The notes beneath the pieces were generated by a model, which saw nothing but the letters and a program-made list of their open reading frames with translations, had not been told where the DNA came from and ran no database searches. Made by a program: the position numbers and the translations under genes. Of a DNA stretch of 1,162 nt, positions 1 through 1,162 are shown in pieces; the stretch's first letter is position 1, and each line of letters starts with the position of its first letter. Source of the DNA: Naegleria gruberi (Eukaryota); the NCBI GenBank assembly GCA_000004985.1, contig GG739521.1, one strand, 5' to 3'.

Positions 1-44
1 ACATGATATATAATAATATCAATTTTTTGAGGTACCCAACTCCC

Positions 45-76
45 GAACGGCTGCGATTCAGACGGTTCCGTAATTG
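45..76 (+). repeat. Direct repeat copy A: GAACGGCTGCGATTCAGACGGTTCCGTAATTG (core GCGATTCAGACGGTTCCG at 53-70)
   Basis: Aligns with 125-156 at about 22 of 32 identities. The 18-bp cores differ at only 2 positions. Copy spacing is 80 bp. Confidence 0.6.
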
Positions 77-112
77 CATAATCAATGAATGTATCGCGTA
101 GCTAACGTTTTC

Positions 113-123
113 AAAAAAAAAAA
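113..123 (+). repeat. Poly(A) homopolymer run, A11
   Basis: Read directly from the sequence. It lies immediately upstream of repeat copy B. Confidence 0.9.
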
Positions 124-124
124 T

Positions 125-156
125 GAAGGAGGGCGATTCAGGCGATTCCGATTAAG
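125..156 (+). repeat. Direct repeat copy B: GAAGGAGGGCGATTCAGGCGATTCCGATTAAG (core GCGATTCAGGCGATTCCG at 133-150)
   Basis: Same alignment as copy A. It also carries the internal sub-repeat GCGATTC twice and an AAGGAGG Shine-Dalgarno-like heptamer at 126-132. Confidence 0.6.
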
Positions 157-193
157 AGACCGGTGTCCATAGATTTAATTTGATTATAAATAT

Positions 194-220
194 AGTGACT
201 TTCGGAATTCACTTTTTTTA
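194..220 (+). terminator. Weak terminator-like element: AGTGA-(10 nt)-TCACT inverted repeat followed by T7
   Basis: A 5-bp AU-rich stem (194-198 and 209-213) lies immediately before TTTTTTT (214-220). The stem is short and GC-poor, so any termination would be weak. It could equally be an operator-like inverted repeat that contains the palindromic GAATTC. Confidence 0.15.
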
Positions 221-425
221 CATTCGATTTAGACGATTTAATGGTAGTATAATTGAGTATACAGGTCTATTATAAAGAATATATTGGGTAGAAACGGGTT
301 AATTTTTTTAATCGATTTTATGCATATATTACAAGAGGAATATAATGTTTTACAGTATTTGGTTATTTTAAAATCGGCTAGAAATGAAGTGAGGACAAAA
401 ATTTTAAAAAATTTCAGTCAAAAAT

Positions 426-578
426 ATGGTCATATTTATCAGTAAACTATATCTTGTGGATTTATATATTAATAGATTTTTCGTTTTTGACACCTCTATT
501 GTAAACACTATAAGATTATTTATTTATAGTTATTTCCATATCTACTTTCGAGTTCATCGACCCCCCCGAAATGTCTGA
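426..578 (+). CDS. Small ORF, 50 codons (MVIFISKLYLVDLYINRFFVFDTSIVNTIRLFIYSYFHIYFRVHRPPRNV); probably a chance ORF
   Basis: Hand translation from the ATG at 426 to the TGA at 576-578. No Shine-Dalgarno sequence upstream. The I/F/Y/L/N-rich composition is what AT-rich DNA encodes by default. It overlaps the promoter-like elements and crosses the compositional boundary. Confidence 0.07.
   Translation: MVIFISKLYLVDLYINRFFVFDTSIVNTIRLFIYSYFHIYFRVHRPPRNV
487..514 (+). promoter_or_regulatory. Sigma70-like promoter: -35 TTGACA (487-492), 16-bp spacer, -10 TATAAG (509-514); predicted TSS about 521, reading into the GC-rich domain
   Basis: The -35 hexamer is a perfect consensus match, the spacer is 16 bp, and the -10 matches 5 of 6 consensus positions. 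Caveat: AT-rich DNA yields promoter-like hexamers by chance. Confidence 0.3.
522..529 (+). promoter_or_regulatory. Alternative reading: archaeal/eukaryal-type TATA-like box ATTTATAG about 27 bp upstream of the GC-rich onset
   Basis: The TATA-like octamer is centred about 26-30 bp upstream of the C7 run and compositional switch at about 556-561, which matches archaeal TATA-to-TSS spacing. This applies only if the source organism is archaeal or eukaryotic, which I cannot determine. Confidence 0.12.
561..567 (+). repeat. Poly(C) run C7 marking the AT/GC compositional boundary
   Basis: TCATCGA-CCCCCCC-GAAATG. G+C content jumps from about 23% to over 55% within the adjacent blocks. Confidence 0.9.
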
Positions 579-588
579 ACTTCAGTTC

Positions 589-951
589 CTAACCTTGCGG
601 ACAGCAGGATCCTAAGGGATTACCCTCATCGAGGGTATCAACGCCCTTCGGAGCCCCCAATGGGTCAACCACCCGTTGGGGCCTGCTGTTCACACCGGGG
701 GTCGGTAACCCTCCCCGCCTGATGAAGGGCGGTGGGCACCCCCAGCCCTTGCGGCTGGGAGCCAAGGCAGCGCGTAACTGCGGGGCGCTGCTAACCAACC
801 AACCAAACCTGACCCGCCACCAGCCAACCAGCCCACCAGCCAGCCAACCACCAGCCACGCGCCCTCTGGCCCACCCAGGCCACGCGTGCGGTCGAGGCAC
901 CCTACAGCCAGCCGGCAGAACCCACGGCCATTCCCACGGACAACGGTCCAA
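589..951 (-). CDS. Probable spurious ORF (120 aa, the only ORF in the supplied track); not a credible protein
   Basis: The translation has about 13 Trp in 120 residues (about 11%, against about 1% typical) and is dominated by W/R/G/P/A. That is exactly what the reverse complement of the CCA/CAGCC low-complexity tract produces (TGG codes W, GGC/GGT codes G). It has no recognisable domain and overlaps the hairpin cluster. Confidence 0.05.
   Translation of the reverse strand: MDRCPWEWPWVLPAGCRVPRPHAWPGWARGRVAGGWLAGGLVGWWRVRFGWLVSSAPQLRAALAPSRKGWGCPPPFIRRGGLPTPGVNSRPQRVVDPLGAPKGVDTLDEGNPLGSCCPQG
621..637 (+). other. Hairpin TACCCTC-ATC-GAGGGTA, 7-bp perfect inverted repeat
   Basis: Reverse complement of TACCCTC is GAGGGTA; the loop is 3 nt. 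Confidence 0.6.
643..654 (+). other. Stem with UUCG tetraloop motif: GCCC-TTCG-GAGC
   Basis: C646:G651 closes the TTCG loop. G643:C654 and C644:G653 extend the stem with one mismatch. C(UUCG)G is a classic stable RNA tetraloop if the + strand is transcribed. Confidence 0.35.
697..713 (+). other. Hairpin GGGGGT-CGGTA-ACCCTC, 6-bp stem including one G:U pair
   Basis: Pairs are 697:713, 698:712 (G:T), 699:711, 700:710, 701:709 and 702:708. Confidence 0.4.
715..732 (+). other. Hairpin CCGCC-TGATGAAG-GGCGG, 5-bp stem and 8-nt loop containing TGATGA
   Basis: Reverse complement of CCGCC is GGCGG. The loop contains UGAUGA, which resembles a C-box or k-turn motif but is a weak signal on its own. Confidence 0.4.
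741..759 (+). other. Hairpin CCCAGCC-CTTGC-GGCTGGG, 7-bp perfect stem and 5-nt loop, of the CAGCC/GGCTG family
   Basis: Reverse complement of CCCAGCC is GGCTGGG. It has the same stem core as the terminal tandem hairpins GCAGCC-TTTT-GGGCTGC. Confidence 0.6.
767..791 (+). other. Hairpin GCAGCGC-GTAACTGCGGG-GCGCTGC, 7-bp perfect stem and 11-nt loop
   Basis: Reverse complement of GCAGCGC is GCGCTGC. Partly competes with an alternative CCTTG/CAAGG pairing at 747-767. Confidence 0.55.
791..860 (+). repeat. C/A-rich low-complexity tract of degenerate CCARCC/CAGCC microsatellite-like repeats; G/T-rich on the minus strand
   Basis: CTAACCAACCAACCAAACC...CCACCAGCCAACCAGCCCACCAGCCAGCCAACCACCAGCCACG. 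CAGCC occurs at 821, 837, 841 and 852. The minus strand reads ...GGTTTGGTTGGTTGG with many GG tracts. Confidence 0.8.
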
Positions 952-1015
952 CCCGCTGCCAGTCCTGACCCCAGGGCTGTCCAGGGAGCCTCCCGCGTGT
1001 GTGACCCGGGAGCCT
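854..1015 (+). repeat. Cluster of short closely spaced direct repeats: GCCACGCG twice (854-861, 879-886), CCCACGG twice (921-927, 933-939), CCAGGG twice (971-976, 981-986), GGGAGCCT twice (984-991, 1008-1015)
   Basis: Read directly. Copy spacings are 25, 12, 10 and 24 bp. This is consistent with low-complexity GC-rich spacer or repeat DNA, not coding sequence. Confidence 0.6.
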
Positions 1016-1059
1016 AGGAGGGCCCCCCAACCGTCCGGCCCAACCGCTGCCCCTGGGGC

Positions 1060-1067
1060 CGATTCAG
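1060..1067 (+). repeat. Third occurrence of the CGATTCAG octamer (CCGATTCAGATA), inside the GC-rich domain just upstream of the tandem hairpin array
   Basis: The exact 8-mer is shared with 55-62 and 135-142. Three copies of one 8-mer in 1.16 kb is unlikely by chance, with roughly 0.02 expected per additional copy. Confidence 0.45.
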
Positions 1068-1074
1068 ATACCTC

Positions 1075-1162
1075 AACCGCAGCCTTTTGGGCTGCCCACA
1101 GCCAAACCGCAGCCTTTTGGGCTGCCCAGATCCTACCAGCCTACCACCGCAGCCCTTTGGGC
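1075..1162 (+). repeat. Tandem array of hairpin-containing units AACCGCAGCC-TTTT-GGGCTGCCCA: copy 1 at 1075-1098, copy 2 at 1105-1128 (identical), variant copy 3 at 1145-1162 (CCCTTTGGGC) truncated by the window end
   Basis: The spacing between copies 1 and 2 is exactly 30 bp, with a 6-bp linker CAGCCA. The spacing between copies 2 and 3 is 40 bp. Each unit contains the inverted repeat GCAGCC/GGCTGC with a T-rich loop. The array continues beyond position 1162. Confidence 0.75.

What the first reader, a model, noticed from the sequence alone, without database searches (positions are those of the whole stretch)
556..800. Candidate novel structured GC-rich ncRNA fed by upstream promoter-like elements
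A sigma70-like TTGACA-16 bp-TATAAG (487-514), or alternatively a TATA-like box at 522-529, sits in the right place to start transcription just before the GC-rich block. The first ~240 nt of that block fold by eye into at least six compact stem-loops. These include a perfect 7-bp hairpin (621-637), a C(UUCG)G tetraloop motif (643-654), a CCGCC/GGCGG stem with a UGAUGA loop (715-732), and two perfect 7-bp stems (741-759, 767-791). No coding potential exists. I could not match it to rRNA, tRNA, RNase P, tmRNA, SRP, 6S or group I/II intron signatures, so if it is real it may be an undescribed RNA.
Basis: partly seen in the sequence, partly recalled or inferred. Interest (0 to 1): 0.6.

Follow-up and report, generated by a model that had tools for sequence, protein, structure and literature searches.

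The report
Naegleria rDNA 5' external transcribed spacer
The GC-rich, strongly folding block is not a new RNA gene but the leader (5' external transcribed spacer) of the ribosomal RNA precursor on the rDNA element of the amoeba Naegleria gruberi or a very close relative, an ordinary part of every eukaryotic rRNA gene.

Summary
The described features are real. There is an abrupt switch from 24% to 70% GC at about position 556. The stated hairpins are present, and 556-800 folds far better than shuffled controls (z = -5.6). The interpretation as an undescribed stand-alone ncRNA fails. Near-identical contigs (98-99% identity) extend the window, and the GC-rich block runs without interruption into the 5' end of a eukaryotic 18S rRNA about 271 nt past the window end, on the same strand. 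Upstream lie 28S, 5.8S and 18S rRNA, a Naegleria-type GIR1 twin-ribozyme intron, and about 7 kb of AT-rich spacer, in a repeat unit of about 13.8 kb. One locus that is 99.1% identical to the window carries a spacer ORF 343/344 identical to a Naegleria gruberi protein. So window 556-1162 is the first ~600 nt of a ~880-nt 5' ETS, and 1-555 is intergenic spacer that probably holds the RNA polymerase I promoter. Seven Naegleria lineages show the same layout: a 550-1000 nt GC-rich block directly before 18S. Only the last ~250-330 nt are conserved across most lineages. Region 556-800 aligns only with one sister lineage, where three hairpins are retained. The "TTGACA" box belongs to a TTTGAC element kept about 70 bp upstream of the boundary in three lineages, so it is a candidate Pol I promoter element, not a sigma-70 box. 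The start site is unmapped. Interest is low.

The parts
1..555 (+). AT-rich (about 24-30% GC) intergenic spacer of the rDNA unit, called 'non-ribosomal sequence' in the Naegleria CERE literature. It is the 3' end of a ~7-kb spacer between 28S and the next 18S. Positions 1 to about 150 lie in the second copy of a 373-bp tandem duplication.
   Evidence: L001 and L003 show 28S, then ~7 kb of 30-35% GC DNA, then this window, then 18S.
53..150 (+). Two copies (53-70 and 133-150) of the spacer sub-repeat GCGATTCAGRCGRTTCCG. At least 7 copies occur along the spacer in L003.
   Evidence: D4, D9; D3, D7. Function unknown; spacer sub-repeats of this kind are typical of rDNA spacers (general knowledge).
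415..426 (+). CAGTCAAAAATA, kept at the same offset (-142 from TCGACCCCCC) in the sister lineage L008. Candidate upstream promoter element.
   Evidence: anchored sequences of L003 and L008. Two lineages only, so weak.
486..492 (+). It is kept at -71/-70 from the TCGACCCCCC boundary motif in three Naegleria lineages whose intervening sequence does not align. Candidate Pol I promoter element.
   Evidence: L003, L008 and L006 agree, and L009 has TTTGAC at -63 from its own boundary. Only 14 of 20000 shuffles give any 6-mer shared at the same offset (+/-1) in all three.
551..567 (+). AGTTCATCGACCCCCCC, a conserved motif exactly at the AT-to-GC switch. Proposed Pol I initiation region and 5' end of the 5' ETS (inferred, not mapped).
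   Evidence: Identical 16-mer in L003 and L008; L006 has AACTCGTCGACCCCCC. Each lies at that lineage's own AT-to-GC boundary, 762-976 nt upstream of 18S.
556..706 (+). ETS domain I, a multibranch fold closed by helix 556-565 / 697-706 (C-run pairing with a G-run). It contains hairpin 577-588, long helix 599-608 / 682-691, a composite hairpin 610-652 that includes the perfect 7-bp stem 621-637, and hairpin 655-681.
   Evidence: MFE and centroid agree. A 5' C-run / downstream G-run closing helix is also predicted in L008 and L006. The internal helices are not clearly conserved in L008.
709..736 (+). Hairpin CCGCCU-GAUGAA-GGGCGG with flanking pairs. It is 100% identical in sister lineage L008.
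   Evidence: No variation, so there is no covariation evidence. It is not a box C/D RNA (Rfam sR53 scores 12.3 bits against a gathering score of 49).
741..759 (+). Hairpin CCCAGCC-CUUGC-GGCUGGG. A hairpin is kept at this position in L008 with a different sequence (a 10-bp stem).
   Evidence: It sits between two invariant blocks, and the stem sequence is replaced while the hairpin is retained.
766..792 (+). Hairpin GGCAGCGC...GCGCUGCU(C), identical in L008 except that the closing G-U becomes G-C.
793..861 (+). C/A-rich microsatellite-like tract (AACC / ACCAGCCA units). It is predicted unpaired, and its length varies between samples by up to about 25 nt.
862..1074 (+). Middle part of the 5' ETS, GC-rich. 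Together with 551-861 it aligns to L008 at 68% identity (window 551-1016).
1075..1162 (+). Three tandem copies of the hairpin unit AACCGCAGCCYTTTGGGCTGCCC inside the ETS. The third copy is cut by the window end.
   Evidence: D2, D5; D12. The ETS continues for about 271 nt past 1162 to the 18S 5' end.

Best explanation
Window 556-1162 is the 5' two-thirds of the 5' external transcribed spacer (about 880 nt) of the rDNA unit of Naegleria gruberi or a very close relative. In Naegleria this unit is carried on a ~14-kb circular extrachromosomal element (CERE). Window 1-555 is the end of the AT-rich intergenic spacer.

Proposed mechanism, from established eukaryotic ribosome biogenesis (inferred here, not shown):
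1. RNA polymerase I initiates at or near the AT-to-GC boundary (about 550-560).
2. The GC-rich leader is transcribed first and folds into stable helices.
3. Those helices act as the co-transcriptional assembly platform for the small-subunit processome (UTP complexes, U3 snoRNP), which chaperones 18S folding.
4. The leader is then cut off at the 18S 5' end and degraded.

Shown: position, strand, contiguity with 18S, rDNA context, taxon, strong folding, lack of a conserved ORF, and the same architecture in related species.

Inferred: the transcription start site, Pol I dependence, and the processome-scaffold role.
For: 1. Contiguity with 18S. L002, L003 and L021 are 97.5-99.1% identical to the window. 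They extend it without any break in the GC-rich tract into TACCTGGTTGATCCTGCCAG... Rfam scores that sequence as the eukaryotic SSU rRNA 5' end (L002 1004-1089, 59 bits, model position 1) and as full-length SSU in L003 (1393 bits).
2. rDNA context. In the window's orientation, L001 reads GIR1 ribozyme, His-Cys-box homing endonuclease, SSU, 5.8S, LSU, about 7 kb of spacer, the window, then the contig end about 20 nt before 18S. L003 repeats with a period of 13,799 nt.
3. Taxon. The intron endonuclease is 89% identical to that of N. italica and 82-88% to other Naegleria. L021 is 99.1% identical to the window over 1160 ungapped nt. Its spacer ORF is 343/344 identical to AUH25140.1, 'hypothetical protein [Naegleria gruberi]'.
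4. Same architecture in seven lineages. L003, L006, L008, L009, L013, L016 and L018 each have AT-rich spacer followed by a 550-1000-nt GC-rich block that abuts 18S.
5. Divergence pattern typical of an ETS. The last ~250-330 nt are 76-92% conserved in four lineages (L008, L011, L009/L010, L006/L007). The L016/L018 clade aligns only over the last ~30-50 nt. The 5' part aligns only to L008, at 68%.
6. Strong folding, with z = -5.6 for 556-800 and z = -7.4 for the whole spacer.
7. Not coding. The ORF has no Pfam hit and is interrupted in L008.
8. A conserved boundary motif, plus TTTGAC at -70, fit a promoter at the boundary.
9. The literature places all Naegleria rDNA on ~14-kb circles. It reports G+C-rich stretches and an unexplained ORF upstream of 18S in N. 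gruberi (PMC5805870).
Against: The transcription start has not been mapped here or in the CERE papers that could be read. Those papers label everything outside the mature rRNAs 'non-ribosomal sequence', and one states that the sequences governing rRNA transcription are little known (PMC13398248). The 5' limit of the ETS is therefore inferred from composition and motif conservation.

The 556-800 part is conserved in only one other lineage, so evidence for structural constraint is thin. Two hairpins are invariant, one is retained with a new sequence, and several MFE helices are broken in the L008 alignment.

No U3 snoRNA sequence was available to test for the ETS-U3 pairing that defines a functional 5' ETS.
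Confidence: 0.9

Rival explanations
1. The GC-rich block, or its 5' part including 556-800, is not transcribed. The Pol I start would lie closer to 18S, for example within the ~300 nt conserved across lineages. The block would then be a promoter-proximal, enhancer or replication-related DNA element of the CERE spacer.
For: The start site is unmapped. Only the last ~250-330 nt before 18S are conserved across several lineages. GC content falls from 62-76% to 44-50% in the last ~200 nt. The N. gruberi replication origin lies somewhere in the non-ribosomal sequence (PMC13315211).
Against: No AT-rich or promoter-like break separates the block from 18S in any of seven lineages. Conserved motifs sit at the AT-to-GC boundary, with an upstream element at fixed spacing, as expected for a promoter there. 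The RNA-level fold is unusually stable and a hairpin is kept with changed sequence. ETS lengths of 0.55-1.0 kb are normal; the Didymium ETS is 1,483 bp (PMC13182076).
Confidence: 0.06
2. One reading: an independent, undescribed structured ncRNA gene at 556-800 with its own sigma-70-like or TATA-type promoter.
For: Promoter-like hexamers are present. The fold is strong. There is no Rfam match.
Against: The locus is eukaryotic rDNA. The GC-rich tract continues unbroken for another ~630 nt into 18S, with no terminator-like site. Rfam simply has no ETS models. The TATAAG hexamer is not conserved in L008.
Confidence: 0.02
3. The region encodes a proline/alanine-rich protein from the ORF starting at ATG 722 (173-182 aa). 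Metagenome pipelines annotate it as a hypothetical protein, and the N. gruberi CERE paper reports a 'second ORF upstream of 18S'.
For: The frame is open from 722 past the window end and for 173-182 aa in L021, L001 and L003. Gene callers report it (P0056). PMC5805870 reports the ORF.
Against: At 70% GC, long open frames are expected by chance. There is no Pfam domain. The only homologue in 5.8 billion proteins is the same species. The frame hits two stops after 45 codons in L008 although the DNA is homologous. No ORF is called on this strand in the ETS of L006, L008 or L009. A Pol I transcript would not normally be translated.
Confidence: 0.02

Closest known systems
5' external transcribed spacer of eukaryotic pre-rRNA (e.g. 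the ~700-nt yeast 5' ETS that scaffolds the SSU processome; the 1,483-bp Didymium iridis ETS, PMC13182076)
   Same: It lies immediately upstream of 18S on the same strand within an IGS-ETS-18S-ITS1-5.8S-ITS2-28S unit. It is non-coding, GC-enriched relative to the spacer, and strongly structured. It diverges quickly except near 18S. It contains internal direct repeats and a length-variable simple repeat, as reported for the Didymium ETS.
   Different: The start site, U3-binding sites and cleavage sites are not mapped for Naegleria. The GC contrast with the flanking spacer is very sharp (about 23% to 70%). The unit sits on a circular extrachromosomal element rather than in a chromosomal array (from the literature, not tested here).
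Published Naegleria gruberi CERE sequences (strain EGB, MG699123, PMC5805870; strain NEG-M, AB298288, cited there)
   Same: The window is 99.1% identical to a metagenomic contig (L021) whose spacer ORF is 343/344 identical to the N. gruberi protein AUH25140.1. The layout matches the published description: an endonuclease-like ORF downstream of 28S, an unexplained ORF upstream of 18S, G+C-rich stretches, and a repeat-rich spacer.
   Different: The GenBank records could not be aligned directly with the tools available, so identity to them is inferred through L021. The papers call this region 'non-ribosomal sequence' and do not annotate an ETS or a promoter.
GC-rich RNA genes standing out in AT-rich genomes (the approach used to find ncRNAs in AT-rich hyperthermophiles)
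   Same: There is a sharp GC island in AT-rich DNA, with strong predicted structure and a TATA-like box about 30 nt upstream. This is what made the region look like a stand-alone RNA gene.
   Different: The host is a mesophilic eukaryote, and the island is the leader of the rRNA precursor, not a separate gene. The idea came from memory and was dropped once 18S was found downstream.

Membership tests
Eukaryotic rDNA 5' ETS | Directly upstream of, contiguous with and on the same strand as the 18S rRNA gene | tested here: met
   L002, L003 and L021 extend the window into SSU rRNA (Rfam RF01960; model position 1 at L002 1004 and L003 10728). 18S starts about 271 nt after window 1162.
Eukaryotic rDNA 5' ETS | Embedded in a complete rDNA unit (spacer-ETS-18S-ITS1-5.8S-ITS2-28S) | tested here: met
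   Rfam hits for SSU, 5.8S and LSU are in order on L001, L003, L006, L008 and L009. L003 has a 13,799-nt repeat period.
Eukaryotic rDNA 5' ETS | Transcribed by RNA polymerase I from a start site at its 5' end | not testable with these tools
   No RNA data were available. The only evidence is indirect: conserved TCGACCCCCC at the AT-to-GC boundary and TTTGAC at -70.
Eukaryotic rDNA 5' ETS | Base-pairs with U3 snoRNA and holds the A0/A1-type processing sites | not tested
   No Naegleria U3 sequence was in the material fetched.
Eukaryotic rDNA 5' ETS | Non-coding | tested here: met
   The ORF from 722 has no Pfam hit, no homologue outside the species, and is broken in L008.
Eukaryotic rDNA 5' ETS | Positional conservation with fast sequence divergence, most conserved next to 18S | tested here: met
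   Seven lineages have a GC-rich block abutting 18S. The 3' ~250-330 nt are 76-92% identical in four lineages. The 5' part aligns only to L008, at 68%.
Eukaryotic rDNA 5' ETS | Conserved secondary structure supported by compensatory changes | tested here: inconclusive
   Only one divergent homologue of 556-800 exists. In the three-row alignment (only two divergent lineages), 7 of 76 pairs change on both sides. Two hairpins are invariant, one hairpin is retained with a new sequence, and several helices are broken.
Naegleria circular extrachromosomal rDNA element (CERE) | Naegleria-type rDNA markers and a single rDNA cistron per ~14-16-kb unit | tested here: met
   GIR1 scores 203 bits in an SSU intron whose position fits S516. 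The endonuclease is 89% identical to that of N. italica. The unit is 13.8 kb. The L021 ORF is 343/344 identical to an N. gruberi protein.
Naegleria circular extrachromosomal rDNA element (CERE) | Circular, extrachromosomal topology | not testable with these tools
   The >1-unit contig L003 fits either a circle or a tandem array. Circularity is taken from the literature (PMC5805870, PMC11008152).
Any described RNA family (Rfam 15) | Covariance-model score at or above the gathering threshold | tested here: not met
   The best hits in the window are 8.9-17.1 bits with E-values of 0.9-7, all far below threshold.
Box C/D RNA / K-turn hairpin (suggested by the UGAUGA loop at 720-725) | Box C plus box D arrangement recognised by a C/D model | tested here: not met
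   Rfam sR53 scores 12.3 bits against a gathering score of 49. By inspection, the 6-8-nt loop is too short for a bulge plus tandem G-A pairs.
Bacterial sigma-70 promoter-driven transcript | Bacterial host with -35/-10 hexamers used by sigma-70 | tested here: not met
   The host is a eukaryote. The TATAAG hexamer is not conserved in L008. Matches are barely above the shuffle expectation.

The most novel reading that the evidence does not exclude
The sharply bounded GC-rich leader could be more than a passive ETS. Its invariant hairpins (709-736, 766-792) or its tandem hairpin repeats (1075-1162) might be released as stable ETS-derived RNAs, as reported for repeat motifs in the Didymium ETS. Alternatively they might serve as lineage-specific protein-binding or replication/transcription-coordination elements of the circular rDNA plasmid. 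Separately, the TTTGAC (-70) and TCGACCCCCC (+1 region) pair would be the first delineation of a Naegleria Pol I promoter.
Probability: 0.1. Interest if true: 0.35.

Novelty: already known. Interest (0 to 1): 0.12.

Why it matters
It matters mainly as a correct re-labelling. A striking GC-rich, hyper-structured, Rfam-negative island next to promoter-like boxes turns out to be the leader of the rRNA precursor. This is a predictable false positive for ncRNA discovery whenever a window stops short of the 18S gene.

There is a modest practical by-product. Papers on the Naegleria rDNA circle lump this region into 'non-ribosomal sequence', annotate an ORF in it, and say that the elements governing rRNA transcription are unknown. 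The comparison here suggests three things:
- where the 5' ETS begins;
- that the 'ORF upstream of 18S' is spurious;
- which short motifs (TCGACCCCCC at the boundary, TTTGAC at -70) are worth testing as Pol I promoter elements, which is relevant to building CERE-based vectors for Naegleria.

Tried and rejected
- **Rfam.** An E-value scan of the window found only sub-threshold noise (mir-571, DUF3800-XI, sR53, HgcG).
- **Phage, plasmid and viral searches.** blastn against phages and plasmids found nothing. Four exact-pattern scans of viral contigs found nothing.
- **Bacterial and archaeal genomes.** One scan of the genome collection found nothing, as expected for a eukaryotic sequence.
- **Minus-strand ORF.** An exact look-up of the 120-aa minus-strand ORF (589-951) found nothing on record.
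- **Archaeal hypothesis.** My first working idea was a GC-rich RNA gene of an AT-rich hyperthermophilic archaeon with a TATA box about 30 nt upstream. I dropped it when L002 showed 18S rRNA downstream.
- **Assembly chimera at the AT/GC junction.** Rejected, because the same junction occurs in at least six independent assemblies.
- **K-turn or box C/D reading of the UGAUGA loop.** Rejected (plus loop geometry).
- **Coding reading.** Rejected.
- **Motif searches in more distant lineages.** The conserved blocks of 556-800 were not found in L006, L009, L013, L016 or L018. No covariance model was built, because two divergent lineages give no statistical power.
- **Literature.** A search for the source of VFQN01 found nothing. 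Clark & Cross 1987 was not held in the library.
Full report
**Observation**

The window splits into an AT-rich part and a GC-rich part. Positions 1-555 have 21-42% GC in 100-nt windows, and about 23% just before the boundary. From about 556 to the end the GC content is 53-74%, with C>G and A>T.

- TTGACA at 487-492, a 16-bp spacer, then TATAAG at 509-514;
- ATTTATAG at 522-529;
- the 7-bp hairpin at 621-637;
- CUUCGG at 646-651;
- the CCGCC/GGCGG hairpin at 715-732 with a UGAUGAAG loop;
- the 7-bp stems at 741-759 and 767-791.

Region 556-800 folds to -121.4 kcal/mol, against -94.7 +/- 4.7 for dinucleotide shuffles (z = -5.64, 0/200 as good). The opposite strand gives z = -3.47.

The MFE has a 150-nt multibranch domain (556-706), closed by the 5' C-run pairing with a G-run, followed by three separate hairpins. 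In that fold the CUUCGG is not used as a tetraloop.

Rfam gives nothing significant.

**Finding the context**

Phage, plasmid, viral-contig and prokaryotic-genome searches all found nothing. One exact 24-mer scan of metagenome contigs returned L001 (14.4 kb) and L002 (1.1 kb).

L002 extends past the window's 3' end. About 271 nt beyond window 1162 it reads TACCTGGTTGATCCTGCCAGTA...GCTTGTCTCAAAG...TAAGCCATGCA. Rfam scores this as position 1 onward of eukaryotic SSU rRNA.

Read in the window's orientation, L001 contains, in order:
1. a GIR1 branching ribozyme (203 bits);
2. a His-Cys-box homing endonuclease gene;
3. the rest of the SSU rRNA;
4. 5.8S rRNA;
5. LSU rRNA;
6. about 7 kb of 30-35% GC spacer;
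7. the window;
8. the contig end, about 20 nt before 18S.

**Taxon**

The intron endonuclease is 89% identical to that of Naegleria italica and 82-88% to other Naegleria species.

Looking up a spurious ETS ORF and the endonuclease relatives gave further loci. L003 is the same species and repeats with a period of 13,799 nt. This matches the ~14-kb rDNA circle described for Naegleria (PMC5805870, PMC11008152).

L021 is 99.1% identical to the window over 1160 ungapped nt. Its spacer ORF is 343/344 identical to AUH25140.1, 'hypothetical protein [Naegleria gruberi]'. The window therefore comes from N. gruberi or a member of its species complex.

Region 556-800 is identical in window, L001, L003 and L005, and differs by one base (G568A) in L002. 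L021 carries the same G-to-A change. The AT/GC junction is genuine.

**What it is**

Window 556-1162 is the first ~600 nt of a non-coding leader of about 880 nt that runs into 18S. This is the 5' external transcribed spacer of the rRNA precursor. Window 1-555 is the end of the intergenic spacer.

The same architecture appears in seven Naegleria lineages (L003, L006, L008, L009, L013, L016, L018): AT-rich spacer, a sharp switch, then 550-1000 nt of GC-rich sequence abutting 18S.

Sequence conservation follows the pattern expected for an ETS:
- The last ~250-330 nt are 76-92% identical in four lineages.
- The L016/L018 clade aligns only over the last ~30-50 nt.
- The 5' part (window 551-1016) aligns only to L008, at 68%.

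The whole spacer folds with z = -7.35.

A frame opens at ATG 722 and runs for 173-182 aa in L021, L001 and L003. [quoted passage not shown] Three results argue against coding:
- It has no Pfam domain.
- It has no homologue outside the species among 5.8 billion proteins.
- It hits two stop codons after 45 codons in L008.

**Structure conservation**

Between the window lineage and L008, two blocks are invariant: CCCTCCCCGCCTGATGAAGGGCGGTGG (hairpin 709-736) and CAAGGCAGCGCGTAACTGCGGGGCGCTGC (hairpin 766-792). Between them the 741-759 hairpin is replaced by a different 10-bp hairpin at the same place.

A 5' C-run / downstream G-run closing helix is predicted in L003, L008 and L006.

The interior of domain I is not clearly conserved. 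In the three-row alignment (only two divergent lineages), 7 of 76 pairs change on both sides and many are broken. With one divergent homologue this test has little power, so structural constraint on 556-706 remains unproven.

**Promoter**

The sigma-70 and TATA readings do not apply to a eukaryotic rDNA unit. Promoter-like matches are only weakly enriched (5 found against 1.8 +/- 1.4 expected).

The comparison does point to real upstream signals:
- AGTTCATCGACCCCCC straddles the AT-to-GC switch identically in L003 and L008, and as AACTCGTCGACCCCCC in L006.
Only 14 of 20000 shuffles give any shared 6-mer at the same offset.
- L003 and L008 also share CAGTCAAAAATA at -142.
- A second clade (L013, L016, L018) has TTTTTTCACTATAGG(G/A)GTACC at its own boundary. 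From memory, this resembles the TATAGGGG-type Pol I initiators of plants and some protists.

I therefore propose that Pol I starts at about 550-560. This is inference. [quoted passage not shown]

**Mechanism**

This rests on established knowledge of eukaryotic ribosome biogenesis and was not tested here. The leader is transcribed first, folds into stable helices, and recruits UTP complexes and the U3 snoRNP to form the SSU processome. It is then removed by cleavages ending at the 18S 5' end and degraded. U3 pairing could not be checked because no Naegleria U3 sequence was available.

**Rivals**

| Rival | Confidence | Main reason against |
|---|---|---|
| Block is non-transcribed spacer DNA, with a start site nearer 18S | 0.06 | Boundary motifs, continuous GC-rich tract, RNA-level fold |
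| Independent ncRNA gene | 0.02 | rDNA context; no gene boundaries |
| Protein-coding ORF | 0.02 | ORF not conserved |

An assembly chimera is excluded.

**Verdict**

It looked novel only because the window ends before 18S and Rfam has no ETS models.

The residual value is small. The comparison gives a proposed ETS boundary, a likely spurious annotated ORF, and candidate Pol I promoter motifs for an organism where these are unmapped.

Noticed in passing
L001 6341-7408 (minus strand); L003 3327-4382 and 17126-18181; L021 9977-11011: The spacer downstream of 28S carries an intact 344-355-aa ORF with a His-Cys-box homing-endonuclease domain (PF05551, E = 1e-26). It lies outside any intron. The N. 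gruberi CERE paper called its counterpart a likely pseudogene. It is only 83% identical between L021 and L003, although their ETS and promoter regions are 98-99% identical to the window. This suggests mosaic or uneven evolution of the spacer.
   Followed up: partly
L001 13285-14434 compared with L003 10728-12747 and L021: The SSU twin-ribozyme intron (GIR1 plus endonuclease gene) is present in L001. It is absent from L003, and apparently from L021, judged only from gene spacing. All three have nearly identical ETS sequences, so intron presence or absence appears to vary within one species complex.
   Followed up: partly
window 53-70, 133-150, 1057-1067; L003 8645-9429, 6165-8350: The short motif GCGATTCAG(R)CG(R)TTCCG recurs at least 7 times in the spacer, and once in degenerate form inside the ETS. 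A 373-bp tandem duplication (L003 8746-9418) covers window 1 to about 150. These could be Pol I enhancer or terminator-type protein-binding repeats.
   Followed up: no
window 817-861: The C/A-rich microsatellite (ACCAGCCA / AACC units) in the ETS varies in length between samples, by up to about 25 nt between the window/L002 and L001/L003/L005. Apart from single substitutions at 568 (in L002) and 940 (in the window), it is the only variable part of the ETS within the species.
   Followed up: yes
window 1075-1162 (continues to about 1185 in L001, L002 and L003): There are three tandem copies of a 24-nt hairpin unit, AACCGCAGCC(Y)TTTGGGCTGCCC, inside the ETS. A related hairpin lies at 1044-1059. 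L008 has only one similar hairpin (CCGCAGCCCGATAGGGCTGC). Repeat motifs in the Didymium ETS give enriched RNAs (PMC13182076).
   Followed up: no
L003 5558-5641 and 7431-7514: Two spacer repeats contain ...ATATC(G/T)A(G/A)(G/A)ACCCCCCC..., which loosely resembles the boundary motif CATATC...TCGACCCCCCC. They could be spacer-promoter duplicates or a chance resemblance.
   Followed up: no
L009 11247-11534: One related Naegleria rDNA unit has a group I intron inside its LSU rRNA gene (Rfam Intron_gpI, 50.4 bits, right at the threshold).
   Followed up: no
L013, L016 and L018, about 530-585 nt upstream of 18S: A second Naegleria clade has a conserved TTTTTTCACTATAGG(G/A)GTACC at its AT-to-GC boundary. 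This differs from the TCGACCCCCC motif of the N. gruberi-like clade. Candidate Pol I start regions therefore differ between clades of one genus.
   Followed up: partly
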